From a virus: 64,000 nucleotides of DNA. The notes beneath the pieces are model-generated. The model saw only the letters and a list, made by a program, of their open reading frames with translations. It had not been told where the DNA came from and ran no database searches. Both the position numbers and the translations under genes were made by a program. This document shows, one piece after another, positions 3,281-28,770 of the stretch. The stretch is from positions 1-64,000 of the IMG/VR virus record IMGVR_UViG_3300037230_000036, one strand, 5' to 3'. Positions within the stretch are counted from its first letter, which is position 1; every line of letters begins with the position of its first letter.

Positions 3281-4759
3281 ATGTTCACTAGGCTCCAAAT
3301 TCCTCCAGGGGTGAACGTAGAAGCTAGCGCTAGCGCGGCTGATGGACAATGGAATATCAGCAACTTAATAAGATTTTTCGCACCGGGTGGCTTCGCGGAA
3401 AAAATCGGCGGCTGGGCCAAGCTCTGCAACACCGCCGTCTTGGGGGTCTGCCGCGCGCTGCACTACTGGGTCGACCTCTCCTCGATCCGATGGTTTGCAG
3501 CCGGGACCAACAGCAACCTCTATGTCGAGTCCAGCGGGGCGCTGACCAGCATCACGCCGGCGGGGTGGCCTGGCGGTGCGGCATCAAGCGGCGCTGTCCC
3601 GTACTCGCTCCTCATCTGGAGCCTCGACAATTTCGGCGAGAACCTGCTGGCGTGTCCGAGCGGCGGCGGCATCTACAACTGGGTGCCACCTGATACCGCA
3701 GTTCCGGCGGCGATCATCGCGACGGCGCCAGCCGCGAACCAGGGCGTCTTCGTCTCGGCGTCGCAGCAGATCGCCATCGCCTTCGGGGCGACGCCGCTGG
3801 GCGGCTCCGAGATGGACCCGATGCTGGTGCGGTGGTCGGATCAGAGCGACGATACCGACTGGATCCCGAGCACGACGAATCAGGCCGGCTCCTTCCGATT
3901 GAGCCGCGGCAGCCGGATCGTTTCCGGGCTATCGGCCCAGCTCAGCAACTTCATCTGGACCGACCTCGACCTCTGGCAGATGCAGTACATCGGCTTCCCG
4001 CTGGTCTACGGCTTCATCCCGGTCGGGCTGCAATGCGGGCTTCTTGCACAGAACGCCGTCGTCGTCCTCGGCGAAACGGTCTACTGGATGTCGGATCACG
4101 GCTTCTTTGTCTACTCCGGCTCCGGGGTGACGCCGATCCCCTGCTCGGTCTGGGATGTCGTCTACAAGAACCTCGACGACGCCAATGCCGACAAGTGCGT
4201 CACGCTTTCCAACTTCCTCTTCAACGAAATCTGGTTCTTCTATCCGTCGCTGAGCGGGGGAACCGGCGAGATCGACTCCTACGTCAAATACAACATCGTG
4301 ACGCAGGCATGGGATTACGGTTCCCTCATTCGCACCGCCGGCACCGATGCCAACAAGCCGAGCGGCCCGGTCTGGGTCGATCAGAACGGCTACCTGCAAC
4401 AGCACGAGAACGGGGTCGACGCCGATGGCGAGGCGATGACCGGAGTGCTGATCCGCAGCGGGTACACGCATCTGTCGCAGGGGCAGGACTTCCTTTTCAT
4501 CGACAGCTTTATCCCCGACTTCCTCTGGACTAATTCGACGGCTAACCCACCATCGGTCACCGTTACGCTGTACTTCCGGAACTGGCCCGGCGACACCCCG
4601 ACGACCGAGGGACCCTTCACCGTGACCCCAACGACCGAGTACATTACGTTCCGAACCCGCGCCCGCGAGGTCGCCATCGAGGTCGAGTGCAGTGCGCTCG
4701 GGGTCTGGTTCCGGCTCGGGCTGCCGTTTCTCCGGACACAGCCGGCAGGGAGGGTCTGA
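3281..4759 (+). CDS. Tail nozzle / packaged-DNA stabilisation protein (P22 gp10-like)
   Basis: Trp-rich beta protein with WSLDNFGE, VRWSDQ, NQAGSFRL and EIWFFYPS motifs; follows the adaptor. Confidence 0.7.
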   Translation: MFTRLQIPPGVNVEASASAADGQWNISNLIRFFAPGGFAEKIGGWAKLCNTAVLGVCRALHYWVDLSSIRWFAAGTNSNLYVESSGALTSITPAGWPGGAASSGAVPYSLLIWSLDNFGENLLACPSGGGIYNWVPPDTAVPAAIIATAPAANQGVFVSASQQIAIAFGATPLGGSEMDPMLVRWSDQSDDTDWIPSTTNQAGSFRLSRGSRIVSGLSAQLSNFIWTDLDLWQMQYIGFPLVYGFIPVGLQCGLLAQNAVVVLGETVYWMSDHGFFVYSGSGVTPIPCSVWDVVYKNLDDANADKCVTLSNFLFNEIWFFYPSLSGGTGEIDSYVKYNIVTQAWDYGSLIRTAGTDANKPSGPVWVDQNGYLQQHENGVDADGEAMTGVLIRSGYTHLSQGQDFLFIDSFIPDFLWTNSTANPPSVTVTLYFRNWPGDTPTTEGPFTVTPTTEYITFRTRAREVAIEVECSALGVWFRLGLPFLRTQPAGRV

Positions 4760-15928: not shown

Positions 15929-16825
15929 ATGCCGAACCCCTTCCGCGTCACCGGCCCCGCCGCAATCAACGTCAGCGGCGGACGCACATCTGGGATGATG
16001 CTGCACCACATCCTCGATGCTCATGACGGCAAGCTGCCCCCGGATGTGTTCGCGTTCTTCTGTAATACCGGGCGAGAGATGCCGGCGACGCTCGACTTCG
16101 TCCGCGACATGGGCGAGCGCTGGGGCGTCCATATCCAGTGGCTCGAATACCGCCGCGATCCCGAGACTGGGCGACAGTGGGCTGAGCCGGTGAGTCACAA
16201 CAGCGCCAGTCGCCATGGCGAACCCTTTGAGATGCTGGTGGGAGGAAAGGCCTTCCTCCCAAATCCGGTCACTCGCTTCTGCACGATCGAGTTAAAAATC
16301 CGGACGACGCGCCGCTGGATTGATGCCGAATTAGGCTGGTCGCGGTGGATCAGCCTCGTCGGATTCCGCGCCGACGAAATGAACCGCGTCATCCGCGCCG
16401 GTATCCGCAATGCCGCGCACAAAGAGCGTTTCCGCACCTCCTGTCCGCTCGTCAAGGCGCGGATGACAAAGGCCGCGCACATCACGCCGTTCTGGCAGGC
16501 GCAGCCGTTCGACCTGGATCTCGCCGGCTCATGGGAGGGGAATTGCGATGGCTGTTTCCTGAAGAAGCGAGCCGCGATCGAGCGGATGTTCGCGGATCAC
16601 TATGAGCGCATGACATGGTGGCCCGCGATGGAAAGCGGGCGCGGCAAGGAACTCGGCGTGAAGGTCGGAGCCCTCGATCCGACCTCCGCGCTGTTTCGGG
16701 CGGATCGGGACAGCTACCGTGAGATCGCCGAGCATGTGCGTCGGAGCCCGCGGTTGCCGGGCCTTGATCCCGATGAGTCCGGGTGGGATGTGTTCGCCGA
16801 CTGCGAGGGCGGCTGCGGGACCTGA
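15929..16825 (+). CDS. PAPS-reductase-family (adenine nucleotide alpha-hydrolase) protein
   Basis: SGGRTSG PP-loop, FCNTGRE, RFCTIELKI, GFRADE, GNCDGCFLK. Confidence 0.88.
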   Translation: MPNPFRVTGPAAINVSGGRTSGMMLHHILDAHDGKLPPDVFAFFCNTGREMPATLDFVRDMGERWGVHIQWLEYRRDPETGRQWAEPVSHNSASRHGEPFEMLVGGKAFLPNPVTRFCTIELKIRTTRRWIDAELGWSRWISLVGFRADEMNRVIRAGIRNAAHKERFRTSCPLVKARMTKAAHITPFWQAQPFDLDLAGSWEGNCDGCFLKKRAAIERMFADHYERMTWWPAMESGRGKELGVKVGALDPTSALFRADRDSYREIAEHVRRSPRLPGLDPDESGWDVFADCEGGCGT

Positions 16826-17406: not shown

Positions 17407-20400
17407 ATGGACGGCTGGCAGCATTTCGCCGAGGGTGGCGACACCGACGCGCCGGACCAGGTGGTAGCGCCGGCCGGGAACGTCTTCGACCAGTTCGACC
17501 AGCCCGCAAAGCCGAGCGCACCCGCCGCGACACCGATCCCCTCGGCGCCGCCGGGCAACTTCTTTGACCGCTTCGACGCGGGCACGAAGGCCGCGGCACC
17601 ACCTGCCACCGGCGGCAATTTCTTCGACAAATTCGACGCGCCGAAACCCGCGGCCGCCGCAGCCTTCACCCGCGAATCGCCGCTCCTCCCGAAGTCACAG
17701 GCGGACATCGACGCGGCGGCGCCGGGCTCCTGGATCAAAGACCCGACCCGCGGCGACCTCTACCAGATGCCGGCGAAGGCCGAACCAGCAGCGCCTCCGG
17801 CCCCCGCGCTCGACTTCTCGAGGCTGACCCCGGGGCCGAAAGCGCCGACCGCAGGGCAAGCGGCACTCCATGCCGCCGAGCGCAGCGTCGTGCCGGCTGC
17901 TGGCGGTCTCGTTGGGGCCGGAGCCGGGGCGGAACTAGGTGCGGCGATCGGTGCATTCGGGGGGCCGCTGGACTGGCTGACGGTGCCGGCGGGCGCGATT
18001 ATCGGCGGCGGCATCGGCGCTATGGGGGCCGGGTATGGCACCGAGAAGGCGCAGGAGGCAGTCACATCGAAAATCCCGGAGTCGGTCAAGGAAGCGGTCG
18101 GCCAGGGAACCGAGCAGCAAGAGGCGGAGACCAAGGCGCACCCGGTCGCCCAATGGATCGGCGAGAATGCCCCGTACCTTGCCGCGCTGTCTCCGTTCGG
18201 AGCCGCCGAGCATGCGCTTCCGGAAGGGGCTGGAGCATTCGCTCGGGCGATGCAGAACCCCGTGGCGCAGCGCGCTCTCCCCGCCGCGATCATGGGTGGC
18301 CAGGAGGCCGTTAATGAAAAGGTGCAGGGCGAGCCGCTGAATCCGTGGGAGATCGCCGGCGCCGCTGGGGTCGGCGGTCTCTTCAACAACGAGACTCGCG
18401 TCGGTTCGGCGCTGACCGGGGCCGGCTCGGCCGTGGCTCGGCCGCTGGCGGGTCCCGCCGCGCGGCTTGCCGGACACGCGCCGCCGTCGGAAACCGGGCC
18501 AGCGGCCCCGCCAGCGCCGCCAGGGCCCGGCGCAGCGGCCGCAGCCGCGCCAGCATGGCCGCCAGCCATCGGCGAGACGTTCGGCCTCAACATGGGCGAC
18601 GCCGGCGTGCAGCCGGTCACGGTCAGCCGCTATACCCCCGACGGCGACATCGTGCTCAAGGACGCCGACGGCACCGAGCACCCGATGACCCCGGAGGACG
18701 TCGCCCGGTTCCGTGCCCCGCTGCCGACAGGAGAAGCTGATGCCCCGACACCGGAAGCCGCAGGAGCGCCGCCAGCAGTCGAAGCGCCTCCCGCCCAAGG
18801 TTCAGCGCGCGCAGCAGTACCGCCAGCGCCAGCGGAAGCGCCTCGCCCGGAAGTGACGGCGGCGCCGCAGATGGCCGGCGAAGGCCAGCCAGCGACGATG
18901 GAAGATCTCGAGCACGTCGCCGCGCTGGAGCGTGCCGCCGCAACTGGGGCGCCGGTTACCCCGCAGCCCGCGCTTGCCACGGCGGAGGCGACGTTGGGGC
19001 GCGAGGCGCAGGGCGAGCCGATCGAACCACCGCGGCCCGCTGCCGCCCCCACAGAGTCTGACGCCGGGACGACGGCAAGCGTGCCGTTCATGATAACGGG
19101 CGCCATGCGCGCGGAGCTCGGCCGCCGCGGCTACACGCAAGAGCAGATTCGCAGCCTGACGCCGGCCGTTGCGCACTCCATTCTTTCTGCTGCGGCGCCC
19201 GTTGCGGAACCGGCAGCACCACCCCGATCCCAATTTGTATACGACGGCACTCCGCGGCCCGAAAACATCGGTACATGGGAAGATGTCCCTGAGACTCCGC
19301 CCGAGCCAGAAGCGACCCGAGTCACAGCGCAAGCCCCGGAGACTGCGGGAGAACCCGCGCCGGCCGTTGCGACAAATATTCCCGAAAATATTCCGGCGCC
19401 GCCCGATCCCTACCAGCGCGCGGTCGAATTGCTCCAGAACCGCGGCGTCGGCAATCCGATCAACGCCGGCATCCTCCGCTCGCAACTCGGGCTCAGCCTG
19501 CCTGACACGCGGAGCGTGATCGACAGATTGTCGGCCGAGGGATATTTGGCCGGCACCGGGCGCAACATGACGATCGCGGAGCCCGGTGCAGTGCCGCCGG
19601 TGGGAAATGAACCGGGGACTGCCGCTGCTACTCCGTTGCCTCAAGCCGCAGATGTCGGAAATGAGCGCGCCATTCCGCAGGCTGCTGAGACCGAATTGGC
19701 AACGGAACCGGAACGAGCGCCGGAACCTCTTCCTACGCCGGCACCTCAGCCGCAGCGCGCCCCAACCGAGGCGGACATCGGCCGCGCGTCCGAGCAGATC
19801 TTCGCCGCGTACCAACAGGGCGGACCAGACGCCGCACGGGGGGTGTACCAGAACCTCGTTGAGACCTGGCCTGGCGGTGCGGTGGAGAATGCCCGCGCCA
19901 GGTTTCAGAGCCTCGTTGAGGGCAGCGGAAAGCCGTGGGAACAAGCGCAGCAGGAGGCCGGAAACCGCGCCAAGGTCACCGAGGGCAACCACACCAAGAC
20001 CGGAGCGCCGATCGTCACGGTGCAACTCGCGCAGAAGGTCGGGTCGGACGAGTTCAAGGGGCTCGGGGCGCAGGCCCGGAAACTCGGCGGCTACTACTCG
20101 TCCTATCGGGGCCGCGGGGCACTACCGGGGTTCGTGTTTCCAGAAAAAGAAGGGTTGGCGGCGGCACGCGATCGGGCAAACGACTTCGCCGCCCTGGCCG
20201 AAGGGAAAGCGCAGGTGCCGGCGGCGATAAAGCCCGAACCTCCTCTCGCGGCGGACGAACATCTTGGCCTCGTCTCAACGTCGCTGGAGAGTCCGGCCAC
20301 CCCGCATTCCGACAATCCGCAGGTGCAGATGGCCGATACCATTGCGCTTCGGCTGGAGCAGGGCGGCACGCCGATCTCTGCCCGCGAGTTGCAGCAGCTT

Positions 20401-23400
20401 GCGGAGGGCGTCTACGGCAGCAAGCTCGCCGAGGGAAAATTCGACCGCGCCACGATGTACGATGCGCTCGAACTCGGGGTGAACAAGTTCATCGCCGCGC
20501 ACCCGGAGCGCTTTGATCCATCGGTAGACCTCAGCCGCGCCCTTAGCACCGCCGCAGAACTCCGTGCACTGAAAGAGAAATTGCCGACGCAGACGGTGCG
20601 TGCCGGGGAAAAGGAAACGCTTCAGCAGTTCTCGACGCCGCCGGACTTCGCCTATGCCGCCGCTTGGGCCGCCCGCCTCGACCGCGACGACTCCGTTCTG
20701 GAGCCTTCCGCCGGTACCGGCAGCCTCGCGGTCTTCGCAATGAACGCGAAACCGCGCGAGGTCACCGTCAACGAGATCTCCGCAAATCGCGCCCCGCTGG
20801 TCGAAAGCCTTCGGCCGACCCGGGCCTTCCGTGAGAATGCGGAGCAGATCAACAACATCCTGCCGCGCGAGGTGCGCCCGACTGCCGTGCTGATGAACCC
20901 GCCGTTTTCGTCGGCCGGGACGCGGCTCGCCGGTCGACGCCAGATCAACATCGGCGCGCAGCACGTCGAGCAGGCGTTGGAGCGGCTGGAGTCCGGCGGC
21001 AGGCTCGTCGCGATTGTTGGCCGCGGCATGGGGCAGAATATGGAGGCCGCGTACCGTCAGGGCACCGGGGCGCACTTCGCGGATTGGTGGCGACGGATCG
21101 GCCAGCAATACGACGTCCGCGCCAACATCGGCGTGCCGGGCGAGGTCTACAACAAGTACGGCACCAATTTTGAAACTCGGCTCCTCGTCATCGACAAGGT
21201 GCCACCAACGGGTCGCGCGCCGCTTATTGCGGAATCGACCGGCGTCACCGATCTTATGCAGAGGCTACAGGAGGTGCGGGATGATCGACCGCAACCCGTT
21301 GCCGGCGCTGAACCGGCTGCCGGTCAACCAAGCGGCGCAGCGGTGCATGGCGAAGGGGCAGTTGAGCCCGGACCCGAACCGGCTTCACGCGATCGAACTG
21401 CTGCAACTGGGGTTCCAGTTCCGCCTGCCGATACCGGGACAGGCCGAGGGCTATCGGTCGGACCTGGAGAGCGCGGCGGAGCAGCTGGACAGCCCGCGGC
21501 TCGCCCCAGCGGACGTGATGAGGTGGCTCCTCAGCAACCCGAACGCGGGGTCGACGGAGGAGCAGAGCAGCACCCTGTCGGAGGAGCTGCTGGACGCCCC
21601 GACGTGGCAGGCGGGAGCGCAGCGCCTGATGCAATGGTTCTACGACCTGAAGGCGAGCCTGGAGCCGTTCTACCGCCCGGCGCCACATCTCCAGACGTAG
21701 TTCCGTCGCCCGCTGTCGTCAGCGTCGACGAGACCGGCGCGAACCCGGAGACTGCGGGGCCGATCACCGAGCAGGTCTACGAACCGTACCGGCCACAGCG
21801 GATCACGGTCGCCGGCGCAAAGAGCCACCCGACAAAACTGGTGCAGACCGCCGCGATGGCATCGGTGATGCCGCCGGAAACGAGTTACGCACCGAGACTT
21901 CCGAAAGCGCTGATCTCGGCCGGGAAGCTCTCCGACGCGCAGCTTGAAGCCATCGTCTACGCCGGACACGCTCATGCGCAGATGTTGCCCGCGATCGAGG
22001 GCGAGGTGCCTCAGCGCCGCGGCTACTTCATAGGGGATGGGACCGGCGTCGGAAAGGGCGCTCAGGTCGGCGGCATTATCCTCGACAACTGGAACCAGGG
22101 CCGCACCAAGGCGGTATGGCTCAGCGAAAGCCGCACCCTCATCAACGATGCGCGCCGGGACTGGCGCTGGATGGACCGCGATCCGAAGGAAATCTTCGAC
22201 TTCGGGAAGACCGCGAAGCCGGGCGAGGATGTCAAGGTCGGGAAGGGGATCGGCTTCCTCACCTACGACACGCTCAAAGGCTATGAGCGGCAGGGGAAGG
22301 ACGCCGAGGGGAGGACGCTCAAAGGGCGTACCCGCGTCGACCAGCTCGTCGACTGGCTCGGCCCCGAGTTCGACGGGGTTATCGCCTTCGACGAATCGCA
22401 CAACCTCGCGAACAGCATTCAGACCAAGGGCTCCCGCGGCTTGCAGGACGCCGCGCAGAAGGCGCTGTCCGGGATCGAGTTGCAGCAGCGGCTACCGAAC
22501 GCCAGGGTCGTCTATGTGTCCGCAACCGGCGCGACAGAGGTCAGCAACCTCGCCTATGCGGAGCGGCTCGGGCTCTGGGGACATGGATCCGCCTTCCCGA
22601 ACAAGGGTGAGTTCATCAACCAGATCGGGGCTGGGGGAGTCGCGGCGATGGAGCTCGTCGCTCGCGACATGAAGGCGATGGGTTCCTACATCTCCCGCAA
22701 CCTCAGCTATGACGGCGTCGAGTACGACCGCCTCGAACACAACCTGTCGCCGGATCAGCGCCGCATTTACGATGATCTGGCCGACGGCTGGCAGAGCGTC
22801 CTCAACAACATGGAGGAAGCGCTGCTCGCGACGACCGGGACCCGTGACAACAATGGCAACCCGAAAGCTGATTCGCGGCAGCGGTCCAATGCGCTGTCGG
22901 CGTTCTGGTCGGGACACCAGCGCTTCTTCAACCAACTCATCACGACACTGCAGATGCCGTCGGTGATCCGCGGGATCGAGGGAGACCTGAGGGCCGGGCG
23001 CCAGTCCGTCCTGCAACTCGTCAACACGAACGAAGCCTCGCAGGAGCGCGCGATCTCCCGGGCGCGAGCCGAGGAAGGCGACCTTGAAGACCTCGACATG
23101 ACCCCACGGGATCAGTTGATGCAGCTGGTCGAGAAGTCATTCCCGGTTCACCAGATGGAGGGGTACGTCGACGAGAACGGCAACACGCGGAGCCGCCCGG
23201 TGCGGGACAGCGCCGGAAACCTCGTCGAGAACGCCAAGGCCGTAACTATGCGAGATCAGCTGCTGTCGCGGCTCGGCAGCATCCGTGTGCCGGACGGCCC
23301 CCTCGAACTGTTGATGAACCACTTCGGCACCGACAAGGTCGCCGAGATCACGGGCCGGAAGCAACGCGTCGTCCGGAAGGCTGATGAGCGCGGCCAAGTC

Positions 23401-26400
23401 CGCAACCAGATCGAGTCCCGGCCGGCGAGCGCGAACGTGACCGAGGCGGACGCCTTCCAGAATGCCAAGAAGCCGATCCTCGTGTTCTCGCAGGCTGGCA
23501 TGACGGGCCGCAGTTATCATGCCGACCTCTCATCGGAGAGCGCGGGTGCGCGGCGGTCGCACTACCTAGTGCAGGCTGGGTGGCGAGCCGATAAGGCGAT
23601 CCAGGGTTTCGGCCGCACGCACCGGACCAACCAGGCGTCGGCGCCGATCTTTCATCTCGTCACGACCGACCTCCAGGGACAGCGTCGGTTCATCTCTTCG
23701 ATCGCCCGCCGCCTGGCGCAACTCGGGGCTCTGACTAAGGGAGAGCGGCGCGCAGGGGAGTCCGGGATGTTCAGCGCCCGCGACAACCTCGAAAGTACGG
23801 AAGCCCGCTCGGCCCTGTCCGCCTTCTGGCGCGACATGCAGCATGGCCGCATCCCGGCGATCGAACCCCGCGACTTTGAACAGCAGACCGGTCTCAAACT
23901 GGAGAACAGCAACCACGAGAGTACCGAGGCACCAGAGATCACGCAGTTTCTGAACCGACTGCTGTCGCTGAAATTCGACACGCAGAACGCGGTCTTCGGT
24001 GCTTTCGAGGAACGGTTGAACACGGCGATCGACCGCGCTTCCGCTGCGGGCACGCTGGATGTTGGAACGGAAACCCTCAAGGCGGATCGGATCGCCAAAC
24101 AGGAGGAGCGCACCGTCCACCGCGACCCGCAATCCGGAGCAGAGACCAAGTACGTGCGGCTTCGGGTCGACAACCGGGTGAACCCGCGCACCTTCGATCA
24201 GGTATCCCGCAATGCCAGCCGCGGCGAGGCGCCGGCTTTCTATGTGCGCTCAAAGCGGTCCGGCAAGGTGATGGCGGTGTCGCCGTCGAACGATGTCACC
24301 GACGCTAAGACCGGGCGCATCATCCCGGAATACCGGCTCACCGATCCGCTGCGGTACACCTTCCTTTCCCGCGACAAGATCGACGGCTACGGCGCCGAAC
24401 GGAACTGGGAGCGCATCGATGACCCCGGCCAAGCCCGCGATCTCTGGAACGCGCAGGTGGCGGCACTCCCCGAGTTCCAGAGCCACGACGAACATCTCAT
24501 CACCGGCGCGCTGCTGCCAATCTGGGATCGCCTCAAGGGGTTCCCGAAGGTTTATCGGCTGCAGACCGACACCGGCGAGCGTATGCTGGGGCGCACTATC
24601 TTTCCGTCCGACCTAGATGCAACGCTGAAGGCCCTCGGGGCCGAAAGCAGCGGCCGCACCTACGAGCCGGCCGAGGTCGCGGCTGGCGTCGCGCAGGGAG
24701 CCCGCGCCTCGCTAGCCAACGGGTGGTCGCTGCGGCGATCAATGGTCGCCGATCAGCCGCGCATCGAATTGATCGGCCCCGACTACAGCAACGATGCCGA
24801 ATTGCGCTCAGCGGGGGTGTTCTCCGAGCGCATCGGCTACCGGACCCGCTACTTCGTGCCGACTGGAGATGACGCGGCCGGGTCGATCGCTAGGATCACC
24901 GAACGCCGCCCGGTCGTCGACATGATGCGCGGAACCGATGACGAGGAAGGGTTGGAGGAACCCGGGGCGACTTCGTCCAGCGCGCCAGGCGCACGGGACA
25001 CCACCGACGAATATCACCAGTTCGCCTCGGCCTATCCGCAGACCCCGGACGCCCAGACCGCTGCGGCCGCACACTACGTCTCCTATTCGGGAGCGCAGAC
25101 TGGAAACGAGCACCTCGCCATCGTCGACCGCAGCGGTCAGCCGATCGGAGCCGGGACCAGCGATGCGCCGGACCGCGTCAGCTTTGATGTGCCCGGGCTC
25201 AACGAGCGGCTGGCTGATCCGGCGTCTGACCTCGCCATCCACCACAACCATCCCCGAGACCTCGCGCTGAGCGGCAGCGACGTGGCGACGCTCGGCTATC
25301 CCGGCGCGGCCACCGTGGTTGCGCACGGGCCGCATGGCGACATCTTCGCAGCGCACCTGACGCCCGAGGCGAAGGTCGCATTCGACCAGCACATCGAGCG
25401 TCCCGGAAATCTATCCGCAGCCCGCGCGCCCTACGAAGCCGCGAACCGGATCGTCCGGAGCGCCCTCACGATGCAGGTGCTCGGCGACAAGTTGGCCCCG
25501 GACGCTGCGGAACGCCTGCAGGCCGACATGGTGAACCGCGCCCTTGATGCGGCGGGGCTCACCGATTATGTGAGTACACGCGGTTCCGAGGGGCTCCCGG
25601 ATCGCGTCTACCGCTCGATCGTCGCCCGCGCCGCGCGGGAAGCCCAGGACGCGATGGCGCAGTCGCCGCGCACCGCCGCACTCAGGGGAGATGTCAGTGC
25701 TCGACTTGATCGATCCACCGTCGTCCTTCAGCCCGACGCCGCAATGGCAGCAATTTCTCGATTCGCTGCCGGCGCAGAGCGCGGACCCGCAGACGCAGGC
25801 GCTGCGGACCGAGGCGCAGGACGAGTTGGCGCGGAGGCAGGGCGCGGGGAAGCCGTGGTGGGTGCAGGAGGACTCCGCGAAGAACCCGCCGACTTCGGCA
25901 GCGGAGCCGTCGACGAAGCCGTAGACGAGGCCGGAACGCCAGAGGACACCCGCGGCTATTTCCAGCGCCTCGGCGACTCGCTCGGCATGGGGCGCGCGGC
26001 GCCGGGCAGGGGCGACCACTTCTTCAACATCCTCAACAAGGACTTCACGTTTCCGCGGTCGAAGGCGTCGCTGGACCCGCGGTCATCGCAGAAGTGGCAG
26101 GCCGAGCTCGCGAAGAAGCGGTACGCGACGGCGCTCGCCGACGGCTACCACGATGGCCTCGCCTCCTGGACCGGGAAGCCGCCGGAGACCTGGCGCAAGG
26201 TCTTCGGGGCGATGGAGATCCTGACGCTGGAGGGCCGGCAGGTGCCGCTCGATGGTCGCGCCGTGATCGCCGAGAACTCGCGGTTCCCCTTCGCGGCCCA
26301 TTCGAAGATCGGCGATACCATCCGCCTGACGACCCCCGACGAAATCGGCATGTTCACCGACTACCGCCGCACGATGGACAAGGTGTGGAAGGATGTCGTC

Positions 26401-28770
26401 GGGGAGACGGCGCGGCAGTTCGGCTGGGAGGGCGAACCCAGCGCGGCGGCGATCTACAAGGCGGCCGAGGATGCCGGCGGCGATACCCGCGAGGGGAAGC
26501 GGTTGCGTCGCGCCGCGCAGCTGGTCGCCGCGATCGAGTACCAGCACCGCAACGCCTATCTGCCGCTGATGCGGCAGGGCGACTACTTCCTGCGGGTGAA
26601 GCCGCTGGAGGGAACCGCCGACAAACCCGGCATCCCCGGCTGGACCGAAGGCTTCCCGCCGACGGTCATGTATCGGCTTCTCGATTCGATGACCCCGTTC
26701 GAGCGCACCGTGGGCGGCGTCCGCAGCGGGACGCCGAAGACCGCCGCGGCCGCAATCGACGAGTTGCGGAAGAGTTTCCCCGAGAACGAATACAGCATCG
26801 ACCACGGCTACGCCTTCCGGTCGGCCGACGCTTTGCGCGACCTCGACATCCCGGCGATCGACAAGCTGATGATGCTGGTCTCGAACGATGTCCGCGGGCA
26901 GATGGAGGATCGCCTCACCCGGAGCGGCTACTCCAAGGGTGACGCCCGGGACGCCGCGCAGGGCGACTACGACAAGCTGGTCGACTCCGTGCTGGACCGC
27001 CTCTACGAGGAGCGCGTCGCCGGGTTCAAGCGGCAGCGGTTGGGGGTGGCCGGCTACAGCGGCGACTTCGCCCGCAGCACGGGCCAGTACACGCACTGGC
27101 TGGCGAACCACATCTCGACGATGAAGCACCAGCCGGAGATCGATGCGGCGGATCAGGCGATCGAGCATCACCCGGACCCGCAGACCCGTGCCTTCTGGCG
27201 GGACTGGGATCGCCGGCAGGAGGACTTCGGCAACCAGCTCCACGGTCCGCTGATGCGGCTGCGCCAGGGCGCCTTCTACTGGATGCTGGGGGCGAACGCC
27301 GCGACCACCGCCAAGATCATGCTGCATGGACCTCTCCGCGGCGTCCCGATCCTGACCACCGGACTCGGCGTCACCGGCCGGGCCCGTGCCGCGGCAACCT
27401 ATCTCGGGGCCAGCAAGGACATCCTCAAAGGTTTCCGGATCGGCCGCGACGGGCTCCAGGTCGATATCGCTGCCGGCGCTCGAGACGGGGCCGAGCGTGC
27501 CCTCGTCGCCGACGCGGAGCGCCAAGCCATCGTTCATCCGCAGACCACCGACGAAATGGCCGCAGTGCGCCAGCGGGGCGAGGATGCGCTGTCGCCGCGC
27601 GCCAGGGGAATGCGCCGGTTCCTCAACATCTGGTCCTCGAACGTCTCCGCCGCGGACCGATTGACCCGGGGGGCCGTGCTGCTCTCCGGCTACCGCACCG
27701 CTAAGGCCGAGGGCATGGAGACCATCAACCGGGTCTGGGATCGCGACCTGAATTGGCGGGACAACCCGGAGCGCACCCCGGAAGGTTTCGCGAAGTTCCT
27801 CGTCGACCAGACCGTTGGTATCTGGGGCGACATCAACCGGATGCCGTTCATGCGGTCGCAGCTCGGCGGGATGCTGGGCCAGTTCCGCCAATACGAGGTC
27901 GGCTATCTCTCGAACCTGCACCAGATGCTGACCCGCATGGGGCCGGAGGGGAAGGTGACGGCGGCGCTGATGCTCGGCGGCCTCGGCATGATGGGTGGCC
28001 TCGTCGCGCTGCCCTTTGCGAAGGACGCCATGCAGGCCGGGCAATGGGCCTATGGCGCCATTACGGGGACGACGCCGGATTGGCAGGATGATCTCCGCGA
28101 ATCGATGGATTGGATGATGCCGGGGGCCGGCGCCGAAATCATGCAGGGGACGCGACCGCTCGGCATCGACTGGTCCGGGATCGGCTTCGGCGACCTCATC
28201 GGCCGCAACGCGCAGTCGCCGCTCGATCTCCTCGGTGCCGCCGGGTCGATGGCGGTTGGTGCCCCGCAGCGTGCGATCCAGCGGGAGCGCAGCGGCCAGA
28301 GCGATCTCGCAGCCTTCGCCGAACTGACCCCGAACGCGGTCAAGCACATGCTGCAGGCGCTGTATCCGGAAATCAGTCTCTACTCGGCGAGCGGATCGAC
28401 GAAGATCGCAGAAGCCCCGACCGAAGCGGATCGCGTCCGCACCGGGCTCGGGTTCCAGTTGGGCTCCCGCGCCGAGCATTTTCAGCAGAGCAGCGAAGCC
28501 TATCGCCGCAGCGACGCTGCGCATGCTGCGCTCACTATGGCGGAAAACCGGATCGCGAACCTGCGGGACCGCGGGGAGCCGATCAACGATGCCCTCGTCG
28601 ATGCCGAGCATGTGATCCAGCAGGGAGAGCGCAGCGGCGTCTTTTCGCCGACGGAAGTCAGCACCTTCCGCCGCGATCTCCAGCACAAGTTCCAGCAGCG
28701 CGCCAATCCCCAGGCGGGATCGCCGACGATGCGGAGAATTCAGGCGATGCAGCCGACAGTCCAGCAATAG
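17407..28770 (+). CDS. DarB-like giant polyvalent protein (FtsK-gamma-like wHTH, N6-adenine methyltransferase, Strawberry-notch SF2 helicase, JAB/RadC-like, PLxRFG-like, C-terminal helical region)
   Basis: QQFSTPP, LEPSAGTG, MNPPF (MTase, ~20620-21200); GDGTGVGKG, FDESH, SATGA, QGFGRTHRTNQ (helicase, ~21770-24100); NEH...HHNHP...LS..D (JAB, ~25100-25350); YLPLMRQGDY (~26555). Confidence 0.88.
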   Translation: MDGWQHFAEGGDTDAPDQVVAPAGNVFDQFDQPAKPSAPAATPIPSAPPGNFFDRFDAGTKAAAPPATGGNFFDKFDAPKPAAAAAFTRESPLLPKSQADIDAAAPGSWIKDPTRGDLYQMPAKAEPAAPPAPALDFSRLTPGPKAPTAGQAALHAAERSVVPAAGGLVGAGAGAELGAAIGAFGGPLDWLTVPAGAIIGGGIGAMGAGYGTEKAQEAVTSKIPESVKEAVGQGTEQQEAETKAHPVAQWIGENAPYLAALSPFGAAEHALPEGAGAFARAMQNPVAQRALPAAIMGGQEAVNEKVQGEPLNPWEIAGAAGVGGLFNNETRVGSALTGAGSAVARPLAGPAARLAGHAPPSETGPAAPPAPPGPGAAAAAAPAWPPAIGETFGLNMGDAGVQPVTVSRYTPDGDIVLKDADGTEHPMTPEDVARFRAPLPTGEADAPTPEAAGAPPAVEAPPAQGSARAAVPPAPAEAPRPEVTAAPQMAGEGQPATMEDLEHVAALERAAATGAPVTPQPALATAEATLGREAQGEPIEPPRPAAAPTESDAGTTASVPFMITGAMRAELGRRGYTQEQIRSLTPAVAHSILSAAAPVAEPAAPPRSQFVYDGTPRPENIGTWEDVPETPPEPEATRVTAQAPETAGEPAPAVATNIPENIPAPPDPYQRAVELLQNRGVGNPINAGILRSQLGLSLPDTRSVIDRLSAEGYLAGTGRNMTIAEPGAVPPVGNEPGTAAATPLPQAADVGNERAIPQAAETELATEPERAPEPLPTPAPQPQRAPTEADIGRASEQIFAAYQQGGPDAARGVYQNLVETWPGGAVENARARFQSLVEGSGKPWEQAQQEAGNRAKVTEGNHTKTGAPIVTVQLAQKVGSDEFKGLGAQARKLGGYYSSYRGRGALPGFVFPEKEGLAAARDRANDFAALAEGKAQVPAAIKPEPPLAADEHLGLVSTSLESPATPHSDNPQVQMADTIALRLEQGGTPISARELQQLAEGVYGSKLAEGKFDRATMYDALELGVNKFIAAHPERFDPSVDLSRALSTAAELRALKEKLPTQTVRAGEKETLQQFSTPPDFAYAAAWAARLDRDDSVLEPSAGTGSLAVFAMNAKPREVTVNEISANRAPLVESLRPTRAFRENAEQINNILPREVRPTAVLMNPPFSSAGTRLAGRRQINIGAQHVEQALERLESGGRLVAIVGRGMGQNMEAAYRQGTGAHFADWWRRIGQQYDVRANIGVPGEVYNKYGTNFETRLLVIDKVPPTGRAPLIAESTGVTDLMQRLQEVRDDRPQPVAGAEPAAGQPSGAAVHGEGAVEPGPEPASRDRTAATGVPVPPADTGTGRGLSVGPGERGGAAGQPAARPSGRDEVAPQQPERGVDGGAEQHPVGGAAGRPDVAGGSAAPDAMVLRPEGEPGAVLPPGATSPDVVPSPAVVSVDETGANPETAGPITEQVYEPYRPQRITVAGAKSHPTKLVQTAAMASVMPPETSYAPRLPKALISAGKLSDAQLEAIVYAGHAHAQMLPAIEGEVPQRRGYFIGDGTGVGKGAQVGGIILDNWNQGRTKAVWLSESRTLINDARRDWRWMDRDPKEIFDFGKTAKPGEDVKVGKGIGFLTYDTLKGYERQGKDAEGRTLKGRTRVDQLVDWLGPEFDGVIAFDESHNLANSIQTKGSRGLQDAAQKALSGIELQQRLPNARVVYVSATGATEVSNLAYAERLGLWGHGSAFPNKGEFINQIGAGGVAAMELVARDMKAMGSYISRNLSYDGVEYDRLEHNLSPDQRRIYDDLADGWQSVLNNMEEALLATTGTRDNNGNPKADSRQRSNALSAFWSGHQRFFNQLITTLQMPSVIRGIEGDLRAGRQSVLQLVNTNEASQERAISRARAEEGDLEDLDMTPRDQLMQLVEKSFPVHQMEGYVDENGNTRSRPVRDSAGNLVENAKAVTMRDQLLSRLGSIRVPDGPLELLMNHFGTDKVAEITGRKQRVVRKADERGQVRNQIESRPASANVTEADAFQNAKKPILVFSQAGMTGRSYHADLSSESAGARRSHYLVQAGWRADKAIQGFGRTHRTNQASAPIFHLVTTDLQGQRRFISSIARRLAQLGALTKGERRAGESGMFSARDNLESTEARSALSAFWRDMQHGRIPAIEPRDFEQQTGLKLENSNHESTEAPEITQFLNRLLSLKFDTQNAVFGAFEERLNTAIDRASAAGTLDVGTETLKADRIAKQEERTVHRDPQSGAETKYVRLRVDNRVNPRTFDQVSRNASRGEAPAFYVRSKRSGKVMAVSPSNDVTDAKTGRIIPEYRLTDPLRYTFLSRDKIDGYGAERNWERIDDPGQARDLWNAQVAALPEFQSHDEHLITGALLPIWDRLKGFPKVYRLQTDTGERMLGRTIFPSDLDATLKALGAESSGRTYEPAEVAAGVAQGARASLANGWSLRRSMVADQPRIELIGPDYSNDAELRSAGVFSERIGYRTRYFVPTGDDAAGSIARITERRPVVDMMRGTDDEEGLEEPGATSSSAPGARDTTDEYHQFASAYPQTPDAQTAAAAHYVSYSGAQTGNEHLAIVDRSGQPIGAGTSDAPDRVSFDVPGLNERLADPASDLAIHHNHPRDLALSGSDVATLGYPGAATVVAHGPHGDIFAAHLTPEAKVAFDQHIERPGNLSAARAPYEAANRIVRSALTMQVLGDKLAPDAAERLQADMVNRALDAAGLTDYVSTRGSEGLPDRVYRSIVARAAREAQDAMAQSPRTAALRGDVSARLDRSTVVLQPDAAMAAISRFAAGAERGPADAGAADRGAGRVGAEAGRGEAVVGAGGLREEPADFGSGAVDEAVDEAGTPEDTRGYFQRLGDSLGMGRAAPGRGDHFFNILNKDFTFPRSKASLDPRSSQKWQAELAKKRYATALADGYHDGLASWTGKPPETWRKVFGAMEILTLEGRQVPLDGRAVIAENSRFPFAAHSKIGDTIRLTTPDEIGMFTDYRRTMDKVWKDVVGETARQFGWEGEPSAAAIYKAAEDAGGDTREGKRLRRAAQLVAAIEYQHRNAYLPLMRQGDYFLRVKPLEGTADKPGIPGWTEGFPPTVMYRLLDSMTPFERTVGGVRSGTPKTAAAAIDELRKSFPENEYSIDHGYAFRSADALRDLDIPAIDKLMMLVSNDVRGQMEDRLTRSGYSKGDARDAAQGDYDKLVDSVLDRLYEERVAGFKRQRLGVAGYSGDFARSTGQYTHWLANHISTMKHQPEIDAADQAIEHHPDPQTRAFWRDWDRRQEDFGNQLHGPLMRLRQGAFYWMLGANAATTAKIMLHGPLRGVPILTTGLGVTGRARAAATYLGASKDILKGFRIGRDGLQVDIAAGARDGAERALVADAERQAIVHPQTTDEMAAVRQRGEDALSPRARGMRRFLNIWSSNVSAADRLTRGAVLLSGYRTAKAEGMETINRVWDRDLNWRDNPERTPEGFAKFLVDQTVGIWGDINRMPFMRSQLGGMLGQFRQYEVGYLSNLHQMLTRMGPEGKVTAALMLGGLGMMGGLVALPFAKDAMQAGQWAYGAITGTTPDWQDDLRESMDWMMPGAGAEIMQGTRPLGIDWSGIGFGDLIGRNAQSPLDLLGAAGSMAVGAPQRAIQRERSGQSDLAAFAELTPNAVKHMLQALYPEISLYSASGSTKIAEAPTEADRVRTGLGFQLGSRAEHFQQSSEAYRRSDAAHAALTMAENRIANLRDRGEPINDALVDAEHVIQQGERSGVFSPTEVSTFRRDLQHKFQQRANPQAGSPTMRRIQAMQPTVQQ
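18740..18856 (+). CDS. Candidate nested 38-aa basic peptide in the +1 frame of the polyvalent gene
   Basis: AGGAGA RBS 5 nt upstream; nearly all third positions are G/C in this frame. Confidence 0.45.
   Translation: MPRHRKPQERRQQSKRLPPKVQRAQQYRQRQRKRLARK
21281..21700 (+). CDS. Nested 139-aa protein in the +1 frame of the polyvalent gene
   Basis: AGGAGGTG RBS; third-position G/C bias shifts to this frame; globular-looking sequence while the host frame is a low-complexity linker. Confidence 0.8.
   Translation: MIDRNPLPALNRLPVNQAAQRCMAKGQLSPDPNRLHAIELLQLGFQFRLPIPGQAEGYRSDLESAAEQLDSPRLAPADVMRWLLSNPNAGSTEEQSSTLSEELLDAPTWQAGAQRLMQWFYDLKASLEPFYRPAPHLQT
25691..25924 (+). CDS. Nested 77-aa protein in the +1 frame of the polyvalent gene
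   Basis: Purine-rich AGGGGAG upstream; third-position G/C bias shifts to this frame; MSVLDLIDPPSSFSPTPQWQQFLDSLP. Confidence 0.7.
   Translation: MSVLDLIDPPSSFSPTPQWQQFLDSLPAQSADPQTQALRTEAQDELARRQGAGKPWWVQEDSAKNPPTSAAEPSTKP

What the first reader, a model, noticed from the sequence alone, without database searches (positions are those of the whole stretch)
25683..25924. Second nested +1-frame gene directly after the JAB/RadC-like region
77-aa ORF MSVLDLIDPPSSFSPTPQWQQFLDSLP... shows the same codon-bias shift, and the host frame turns into linker. The RBS spacing is short. Together with the 21281 gene, this suggests a repeated design: enzyme domain followed by an overprinted small partner, like toxin-immunity pairs packed inside a polyprotein gene.
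Basis: partly seen in the sequence, partly recalled or inferred. Interest (0 to 1): 0.78.

Follow-up and report, generated by a model that had tools for sequence, protein, structure and literature searches.

The report
Hidden partner gene inside phage giant gene
A small, widely conserved protein gene is written in a second reading frame inside a phage's 3787-residue injected-type protein gene, always right after its JAB/JAMM enzyme domain; it is therefore a real hidden gene and probably that enzyme's dedicated partner.

Summary
The window comes from a 91-kb phage genome with terminal repeats. At 25697 (or 25691) to 25924, a +1-frame ORF lies inside the 3787-aa polyvalent gene (17407..28770).

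- Host-frame GC3 falls to about 0.55, against 0.79 expected, while the +1 frame takes on the coding signature.
- The same peptide (M-x3-IDPPSPFxP-x3-W-x2-FL, then two helices) is found in every homologous locus, with a Shine-Dalgarno site and a start codon about 4 codons before IDPP.
- With the host protein held fixed and codons redrawn, peptide conservation has z = 12 (0 of 2000 draws).
- A profile search finds 389 clusters of 50-75-aa proteins. None matches a Pfam, NCBIfam or PHROG family.
- In a peptide-blind sample of viral contigs anchored on the JAB motif, 37 of 39 assessable JAB domains are followed within 272 nt by this gene. Twenty are nested (all +1), 16 are separate genes at the stop of a JAB-domain gene (MuF-JAB in the eight scanned with Pfam), and one is fused in frame.

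So it is a real overprinted gene and a genetic partner of the JAB domain. Whether it inhibits, activates or chaperones that domain is untested.

The 21281 nested gene is also conserved and nested in a relative, and one natural protein fuses the two families.

The parts
17407..28770 (+). Host gene: a 3787-aa polyvalent protein. It has an MTase-like region, a Strawberry-notch helicase (AAA_34 and Helicase_C_4), a JAB-like domain, and a roughly 930-aa C-terminal domain with no Pfam match.
   Evidence: Homologues span the JAB domain and the C-terminal part as one protein. The gene lies among tail-fibre, virion-structural and DNA-ejection protein genes.
24994..25692 (+). JAB/JAMM-like domain (host aa 2530-2762). 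Catalytic-type residues are E2568 (25108), HHNHP at 2612-2616 (25240-25254), S2622 and D2625.
   Evidence: E, H-x-H-P, S and D are invariant in 18 sequences. The AF2 model has pLDDT 93. The best structural matches are JAMM deubiquitinase-type enzymes: BubCD Z 8.2, PfJAMM1 7.7, an Rpn11 homologue 7.5, RadC 6.5.
25684..25690 (+). Shine-Dalgarno-like site AGGGGAG for the nested gene. In the host frame it encodes R-G-D.
   Evidence: Seen in the sequence. An equivalent purine-rich site lies 5-7 nt before the start in homologues. It is present in 18 of 20 further nested copies.
25697..25924 (+). Nested +1-frame gene, 75 aa from GTG 25697 (77 aa if ATG 25691 is used), ending at stop TAG 25922-25924. 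Landmarks are IDPP at 25709-25720, the invariant Trp at 25745-25747, and the KPWW motif at 25850-25861.
   Evidence: The family profile hits this place alone in the 91-kb genome (E 1.8e-28).
25693..25956 (+). Host-frame linker (aa 2763-2850) that overlaps the nested gene. It starts with ARLDRST (the same bases as IDPP in +1), continues as a G/A/R/E-rich stretch of variable length, and ends with GLxEEPxDF.
   Evidence: Alignment with seven homologues. Separate JAB-domain genes stop exactly where the peptide gene starts. This stretch is therefore not part of the JAB domain.
25957..28767 (+). C-terminal domain of the polyvalent protein, conserved in the closest homologues but replaced by unrelated sequence in other nested loci (for example L029).

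Best explanation
The +1 ORF is a real, independently translated gene. It encodes an acidic protein of about 8 kDa (pI 4.4). The protein has an extended, nearly invariant N-terminus (M-x3-IDPP-S/G-P-F-x-P-x3-W-x2-F-L) followed by a two-helix hairpin. It is the dedicated partner of the JAB/JAMM-type metalloenzyme domain encoded just upstream. In simpler phages the pair is two coupled genes in the head module: a MuF-JAB gene, then the small gene at or overlapping its stop codon. In polyvalent genes, the JAB gene has been fused to whatever follows by reading through the small gene in the -1 frame relative to the small gene. That reading gives the host protein a G/A/R/E-rich linker, while the small gene survives as an overprinted ORF with its own SD and start. 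Shown here: the gene is conserved and under the same purifying selection whether nested or free; it has its own start signals; it is tightly linked to the JAB domain; in-frame JAB-peptide fusions exist. Inferred: the peptide binds the JAB domain and regulates it. The leading sub-hypothesis is inhibition in the producing cell or in the virion, with the extended IDPP segment lying in the active-site cleft as a pro-peptide-like or immunity-like inhibitor. An activating or targeting subunit is nearly as likely.
For: The +1 peptide is present in every homologous locus found through the host protein: L002, L003, L004, L005, and a divergent copy in L001. A synonymous-codon null model gives z = 12 for peptide conservation, and host GC3 is far below expectation. 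The profile finds 389 clusters at E <= 1e-3, mostly 50-75 aa and matching from residue 1. A peptide-motif DNA scan gave 20 of 20 true members, both nested and free-standing. A peptide-blind, JAB-anchored scan found the peptide within 272 nt after the JAB domain in 37 of 39 assessable cases: 20 nested (all +1), 16 separate, 1 in-frame fusion. The free-standing copies examined in detail follow MuF (PF04233)-JAB genes in portal-MuF-x-scaffold-capsid order. SD and start are conserved about 4 codons before IDPP. In L005, L051, L052, L082 and L086 an in-frame stop sits just before the start. Mean peptide identity is 0.40 in both the nested and the free sets. In-frame fusions L079 and P0162 link the JAB domain and the peptide in Rosetta-stone fashion. 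The JAB domain keeps an intact E/HxH/S/D site and a JAMM fold. On the JAB tree, eight nested loci form a clade (98/93) and two nested loci lie elsewhere, so the arrangement is old and arose or was lost more than once.
Against: There is no direct evidence of translation and no evidence of binding. The peptide has no detectable relative of known function in Pfam, NCBIfam, PHROGs, PDB sequences or Foldseek. Orphan copies without an adjacent JAB domain exist (L016, L013-type). Some family members are membrane-anchored, tandemly repeated or fused to other proteins, so the family is not strictly tied to the JAB domain. Two JAB domains lack the peptide (L053, L071). In-frame fusions sit awkwardly with a classical immunity protein that stays behind in the producer cell. 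P0181 fuses this family to the 21281 family. That hints at a shared role for both nested proteins, such as handling of the giant protein, rather than domain-specific inhibition.
Confidence: 0.68

Rival explanations
1. The gene is real but functionally independent of the JAB domain. It could be a small early or anti-defence protein, or a packaging or ejection chaperone for the giant virion protein, that merely occupies a conserved slot after the JAB gene.
For: Orphan copies occur without a JAB domain (L016, 84% nucleotide identity to the L011 copy). Membrane-anchored, tandem and other fusion forms exist. P0181 fuses it to the 21281-family protein, which in the window follows the MTase rather than the JAB domain. 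The protein is small, acidic and helical, as many chaperones and mimic proteins are.
Against: In a peptide-blind sample, 95% of assessable JAB domains carry the peptide within 272 nt. This holds across the sampled JAB-gene contexts: eight MuF-JAB head-module genes verified in the first set of loci and several unrelated polyvalent architectures. In-frame fusions to the JAB C-terminus occur (L079, P0162). The region after the peptide is variable while the JAB-peptide pair is constant.
Confidence: 0.17
2. The +1 sequence is not initiated on its own. It is reached by programmed ribosomal frameshifting from the host frame, giving a truncated MTase-helicase-JAB protein that ends in the peptide.
For: The +1 frame is open for 41 codons upstream of the start in the window. 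Natural in-frame JAB-peptide fusions exist (L079, P0162), so a covalently attached form is viable.
Against: In L005, L051, L052, L082 and L086 an in-frame stop lies directly before the start Met of the peptide. An SD-like site and a start codon are kept at a fixed distance from IDPP in 18 of 20 further nested copies. In 16 loci the peptide is a separate gene beginning at the stop of the JAB gene. No conserved slippery site was seen in the aligned junctions.
Confidence: 0.06
3. This is not a gene. The open +1 frame and its apparent conservation are by-products of a conserved host frame in a GC-rich genome.
For: Openness of the +1 frame alone is expected (P = 0.75 in the window). The window holds many long off-frame ORFs. 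The host frame does carry conserved motifs here (ARLDRST, GLxEEPxDF).
Against: With the host protein held fixed, the observed +1 conservation was never reached in 2000 codon redraws (z = 12), and host GC3 is about 5 SD below expectation. The same protein exists as a free-standing gene where the other frames are closed. 389 clusters were called independently. Other +1 ORFs of the same gene (19169, 19586) translate to Arg-rich junk, unlike this one.
Confidence: 0.03

Closest known systems
Embedded phage genes such as lambda Rz1 inside Rz (+1 frame) and phiX174 E inside D (named from general knowledge)
   Same: A short gene lies wholly inside a longer same-strand gene in another frame. It has its own ribosome-binding site and start, and both products are functionally linked.
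   Different: Here the longer gene's frame, not the small gene, looks like the newcomer. The small gene also exists free-standing, carries the normal codon signature, and the host reads it as a low-complexity linker. The arrangement seems to come from fusing flanking genes across an intervening gene, and it recurs twice in one 11-kb gene.
MuF polymorphic toxin plus downstream small immunity ORF (Jamet et al. 2017, PMC5576092; Zhang et al. 2012, PMC3482391)
   Same: In the free-standing relatives checked with Pfam, a MuF head-protein domain carries a C-terminal enzymatic domain (here the JAB domain). It is followed at once by a small ORF of under 150 aa with no known domain. The paper reports such an ORF after 89% of MuF toxin genes.
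   Different: Toxicity of this JAB domain and protection by the peptide are untested. The peptide has a strongly conserved N-terminal motif across JAB domains only 20-35% identical. It is sometimes fused in frame to the JAB domain. In the window no MuF domain is detected, and the small ORF is inside the effector gene rather than after it.
Polyvalent proteins of phages and conjugative elements (Iyer et al. 2017, PMC5512222)
   Same: The host gene is a typical member, combining MTase, helicase and a RadC/JAB-type domain in one giant protein encoded among virion genes.
   Different: In that paper's text, a search for the word stems 'overlapping' and 'frameshift' found neither. It treats the linkers as plain linkers. 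Here at least two linkers encode conserved proteins in the +1 frame.
JAMM/MPN+ enzymes that work with an obligate partner or an inhibitory segment (Rpn11-Rpn8, BRCC36-KIAA0157, CSN5-CSN6; bacterial Bil/Bub JAMM enzymes), named from general knowledge and the PDB titles
   Same: The upstream domain has the JAMM motif and fold. Its best structural matches are such enzymes, and a dedicated partner polypeptide is genetically tied to it.
   Different: The partner here is a 55-75-aa helical hairpin with an extended N-terminus. It is not an MPN- domain or a ubiquitin-like protein. No activity or substrate is known for this JAB subfamily.

Membership tests
Overprinted (fully nested, same-strand) phage gene | An ORF wholly inside a longer ORF of the same strand, in another frame | tested here: met
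   25697..25924 lies in frame +1 of 17407..28770. The same holds in 20 of 20 nested relatives.
Overprinted (fully nested, same-strand) phage gene | Its own translation-initiation signals | tested here: met
   AGGGGAG, a 6-nt spacer, then GTG 25697. SD and start are conserved about 4 codons before IDPP. They are present in 18 of 20 further nested copies, some with a stop directly upstream. This is sequence-level evidence only.
Overprinted (fully nested, same-strand) phage gene | The nested frame is under purifying selection beyond what the host frame imposes | tested here: met
   Codon-redraw null: z = 12, 0 of 2000. Peptide identity is equal in the nested and free sets. Free-standing homologues exist.
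Overprinted (fully nested, same-strand) phage gene | The product is detected in cells | not testable with these tools
No proteomic data were available.
MuF polymorphic toxin / immunity module | An N-terminal MuF domain carrying a C-terminal effector domain | tested here: not met
   P0001 has no MuF hit. The feature is met only in free-standing relatives: PF04233 in 8 of 8 scanned.
MuF polymorphic toxin / immunity module | A small ORF immediately downstream of the effector domain | tested here: met
   37 of 39 JAB domains are followed within 272 nt by the peptide gene.
MuF polymorphic toxin / immunity module | The effector is toxic and the small protein neutralises it | not testable with these tools
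   This needs co-expression assays.
JAB/MPN+ (JAMM) metalloenzyme (the upstream domain) | The E ... H-x-H ... S-x-x-D metal-site motif | tested here: met
   E39, H84, H86, S93 and D96 of the domain are invariant in 18 sequences.
JAB/MPN+ (JAMM) metalloenzyme (the upstream domain) | The JAB/cytidine-deaminase-like fold | tested here: met
   The AF2 model has pLDDT 93. Top Foldseek and VIA matches are JAMM enzymes with Z 6.5-8.2 and Foldseek probability 0.96-0.99. The Z values are moderate.
RadC family (PF04002) | A sequence match to the RadC profile | tested here: inconclusive
   P0001 has no Pfam hit at E <= 0.01. The RadC structure 2qlc matches at Z 6.5, below several deubiquitinase-type JAMM enzymes. 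The motif spacing is P-x8-D in all family members. The expectation that typical RadC has P-x9-D rests on recall and was not tested.
Programmed-frameshift C-terminal extension | No own start; the product is reached from the upstream frame at a conserved slip site | tested here: not met
   In-frame stops lie directly before the start in five loci, and SD and start are conserved.

The most novel reading that the evidence does not exclude
Phage polyvalent genes may routinely hide their own regulators in the +1 frame of their inter-domain 'linkers'. In this case the IDPP protein would be a trans-acting, pro-peptide-like inhibitor. Its invariant Asp-Pro-Pro N-terminus would plug the zinc site of a virion-delivered JAMM isopeptidase, which after injection strips bacterial ubiquitin-like (Bil/Bub/CBASS-type) defence conjugates. 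The 21281 protein would play a matching role for another domain. Giant effector genes would then have grown by fusing neighbours across such small genes.
Probability: 0.15. Interest if true: 0.9.

Novelty: new variant of a known kind. Interest (0 to 1): 0.76.

Why it matters
Gene callers forbid nested same-strand genes, so this family is visible in databases only on short contig fragments. It has at least 389 clusters at 50% identity and matches no Pfam, NCBIfam or PHROG family.

It marks a previously unrecognised two-component module, a JAB/JAMM domain plus a small partner. Phages carry this module in the head (MuF) or inside injected-type polyvalent proteins, where counter-defence enzymes are expected.

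It also gives a concrete example of how giant multidomain effector genes can be built. Neighbouring genes are fused across an intervening gene that stays functional in another frame, so a stretch annotated as a disordered linker can hold a second gene. The same 11-kb gene does this twice.

If the partner is an inhibitor or cofactor, it offers a handle for finding the still unknown substrate of this JAB subfamily.

Tried and rejected
- **Cultured phages and plasmids.** tblastn of the host region and of a family member (P0097) against the phage and plasmid collections gave no match.
- **GTDB genome contigs.** Two scans with the host region found no relative.
- **Family and structure libraries.** Pfam, NCBIfam, PHROGs, PDB-sequence and Foldseek searches of the peptide gave nothing meaningful. 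The ESM Atlas gave no usable hit.
- **Failed scans.** The search for related loci with the broad alignments A3 and A4 failed for lack of conserved stretches. One DNA pattern scan had one N too many. All 16 of its hits were random, and it was repeated correctly.
- **Idea tested and not supported.** I asked whether the host-type frame is automatically stop-free across the peptide gene because of high GC3, which would explain why all nested copies are +1. Only 2 of 22 free-standing genes are open in that frame, the same as in the other frame. The '+1 only' rule remains unexplained, or reflects few origins.
- **Confounded result.** Divergence at peptide third positions is lower in nested copies (0.46) than in free copies (0.66). 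This is confounded by GC3 and is not used as evidence for selection on the host frame.
- **Other +1 ORFs.** The ORFs at 19169 and 19586, in low-GC3 stretches of the host gene, translate to Arg-rich junk. They were not pursued.
Full report
**Setting.** The window is bases 1-64000 of a 91,268-bp virus record with direct terminal repeats, at about 65% GC. The ORF 17407..28770 encodes a 3787-aa protein. It has an MTase-like region and a Strawberry-notch helicase (AAA_34, Helicase_C_4). It lies among tail-fibre, virion-structural and DNA-ejection protein genes. This is the polyvalent-protein architecture described by Iyer et al. 2017 (PMC5512222).

**Observation.** The +1 ORF runs from 25691/25697 to 25924.
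- Codon-position GC shifts sharply across 25640-25880. Host position 1 rises to about 0.9 and host position 3 falls to 0.52-0.60, against 0.8-0.95 elsewhere. The +1 frame therefore carries the normal coding signature.
- I redrew synonymous codons from the gene's own usage while keeping the host protein. Expected host GC3 is 0.79 +/- 0.05 and the observed value is 0.55.
- Openness of the +1 frame by itself is not informative (P = 0.75).

**Host frame.** Seven homologous giant proteins (40-51% identity) span the JAB region and the C-terminal part as one chain.
- In the host frame they share ARLDRST at the start of the overlap.
- A G/A/R/E-rich stretch of variable length follows.
- GLxEEPxDF ends the overlap.

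So the giant ORF is genuinely continuous.

**The +1 peptide in relatives.** DNA of relatives was obtained through the host protein only: L001-L005.
- All of them carry an open +1 ORF at the same place, encoding M-x3-IDPP(G/S)(P)F-x-P-x3-W-x2-FL followed by helical sequence. L001 has a divergent copy.
- Host GC3 dips in the same stretch in L002, L004 and L005 (0.33-0.5), the three relatives profiled for it.
- With host proteins fixed and codons redrawn, the summed pairwise score of the +1 peptides is 565 against 226 +/- 28 (z = 12, 0 of 2000).
- A purine-rich SD lies 5-7 nt before a start codon that sits about 4 codons before IDPP.
- In the window this points to GTG 25697, 6 nt after AGGGGAG at 25684-25690, rather than ATG 25691.
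- In L005, L051, L052, L082 and L086 an in-frame stop lies directly before the start. This excludes a frameshift-fusion product there.

**A large, unnamed family.** A four-sequence profile finds 389 representative clusters at E <= 1e-3 among 1.84 billion representatives. Most are 50-75 aa and match from residue 1.
- Some share the window's C-terminal KPWW motif. Some are tandem, membrane-anchored or fused forms.
- The family has no match in Pfam, NCBIfam, PHROGs or PDB sequences.
- All ten members looked up are singletons or near-singletons on short contigs. This is what one expects if gene callers report the ORF only when the enclosing gene is truncated. That reading is an inference.
- AF2 predicts an extended N-terminus (residues 1-13) and two helices (14-23 and 31-49), with pLDDT 74. 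No informative fold match was found.
- The window's product is acidic (pI 4.4).

**Linkage to the JAB domain.** The upstream domain (host aa 2530-2762) keeps E, H-x-H-P, S and D invariant in 18 sequences. It folds with pLDDT 93. Its best structural matches are JAMM enzymes: BubCD Z 8.2, PfJAMM1 7.7, an Rpn11 homologue 7.5, RadC 6.5.
- A peptide-motif DNA scan of viral contigs returned 20 loci, all true members.
- Where the peptide is free-standing, it starts at or over the stop codon of a 470-635-aa MuF (PF04233)-JAB gene. The surrounding order is portal, MuF/JAB, peptide, scaffold, capsid.
- The decisive test was a peptide-blind scan anchored on the HHNHP...D motif. It gave 43 family JAB domains, 39 of them with at least 300 nt of downstream sequence.
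- Of those 39, 37 are followed within 272 nt by the peptide: 20 nested (all in frame +1), 16 separate genes, 1 in-frame fusion (L079), and 2 without it.
- P0162 is a second in-frame JAB-peptide fusion.
- Orphan copies also exist (L016, L013-type).

**Evolution.** Separate JAB-domain genes end where the peptide gene begins. The overlap region has the peptide's codon signature, and the host reads it as low-complexity sequence. The simplest history is that the small gene is the older reading. On this view the polyvalent gene arose by reading through it to join the next gene.
- On a JAB-domain tree, eight nested loci including the window form a clade (98/93). Two other nested loci lie elsewhere, so at least two changes of state are required.
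- Peptide identity is 0.40 in both the nested and the free sets, so nested copies are not decaying.
- The region after the peptide differs between nested loci, whereas the JAB-peptide pair is constant.

**The 'repeated design'.** The +1 ORF at 21281-21700 encodes a normal-looking 139-aa protein.
- It has 15 homologues at 52-57% identity.
- In L030, from the same contig as L029, it is again nested in +1 between the MTase and the helicase, with host GC3 at 0.40-0.50.
- P0181 joins an IDPP-family domain to a 21281-family protein (E 1.4e-9).
- Other low-GC3 stretches of the host gene give Arg-rich +1 translations where I looked.

**Mechanism.**
- Shown: a conserved, separately initiated small gene, genetically coupled to a JAMM-type domain in three configurations (separate, nested, fused).
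- Inferred: the peptide binds and regulates that domain.
- An inhibitory role fits the MuF toxin/immunity layout, in which 89% of MuF toxin genes are followed by an ORF of under 150 aa (PMC5576092). It also fits the extended, invariant Asp-Pro-Pro N-terminus and the existence of orphan copies.
- An accessory or targeting-subunit role fits the in-frame fusions, and the general habit of JAMM enzymes of working with partners (general knowledge).
- A chaperone role for the giant virion protein fits the P0181 fusion.

**Literature.** In the text of Iyer et al. 2017, a search for the word stems 'overlapping' and 'frameshift' found neither. My searches for overlapping genes in polyvalent proteins found nothing relevant.

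**Verdict.** This is a real hidden gene and a new small-protein family. It forms a new two-part JAB module, and it is a clear case of gene fusion across a retained gene. Its function is unproven.

Noticed in passing
window 21281-21700 (+1 frame of the host gene); L030:3980-4415: A second nested gene (139 aa) lies between the MTase and the helicase. It has 15 homologues at 52-57% identity. It is nested in +1 at the same junction in a related 105-kb viral contig, where host GC3 is 0.40-0.50. P0181 (186 aa) fuses an IDPP-family domain to this family.
   Followed up: partly
window 18682-18900, 19132-19430, 19582-19800: Three further stretches of the giant gene have host GC3 below 0.7 and position 1 above position 3. 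The +1 ORFs at 19169 and 19586 translate to Arg-rich junk, so these look like linker composition rather than genes. The 18.7-kb stretch was not examined.
   Followed up: partly
L013, L017, L023, L026 (four viral contigs from different samples): The peptide gene is broken after about 32 residues. Its 3' half (profile positions 27-51) lies about 160 nt away on the opposite strand, identically in four contigs. This may be an inversion within the gene. No JAB domain is nearby.
   Followed up: no
L016:1500-1680: An orphan copy of the peptide gene, 84% identical in DNA to the L011 copy, sits in a different context with no JAB gene. This is reminiscent of orphan immunity cassettes.
   Followed up: partly
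L061:1949-2101 and 3362-3490; L068:7044-7259: Some polyvalent genes carry a second match to the peptide profile about 1.4 kb downstream (L061), or a partial duplicate next to the first (L068).
   Followed up: no
P0021, P0039, P0102 (tandem); P0052, P0108, P0066 (membrane segments); P0152 (GrpE-like N-terminus): Family members exist as 2-3 tandem repeats, as forms with predicted membrane-spanning segments, and fused to a GrpE-like sequence.
   Followed up: no
20 nested loci: Every nested copy is in frame +1 relative to the JAB frame and none is in +2. Free-standing copies are no more often stop-free in that frame than in the other (2 of 22 each), so the rule is unexplained.
   Followed up: partly
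window 15929-16825: A PAPS-reductase-like gene (phrog_424, E 6e-41) lies just upstream of the giant gene, inside the structural and ejection module.
   Followed up: no
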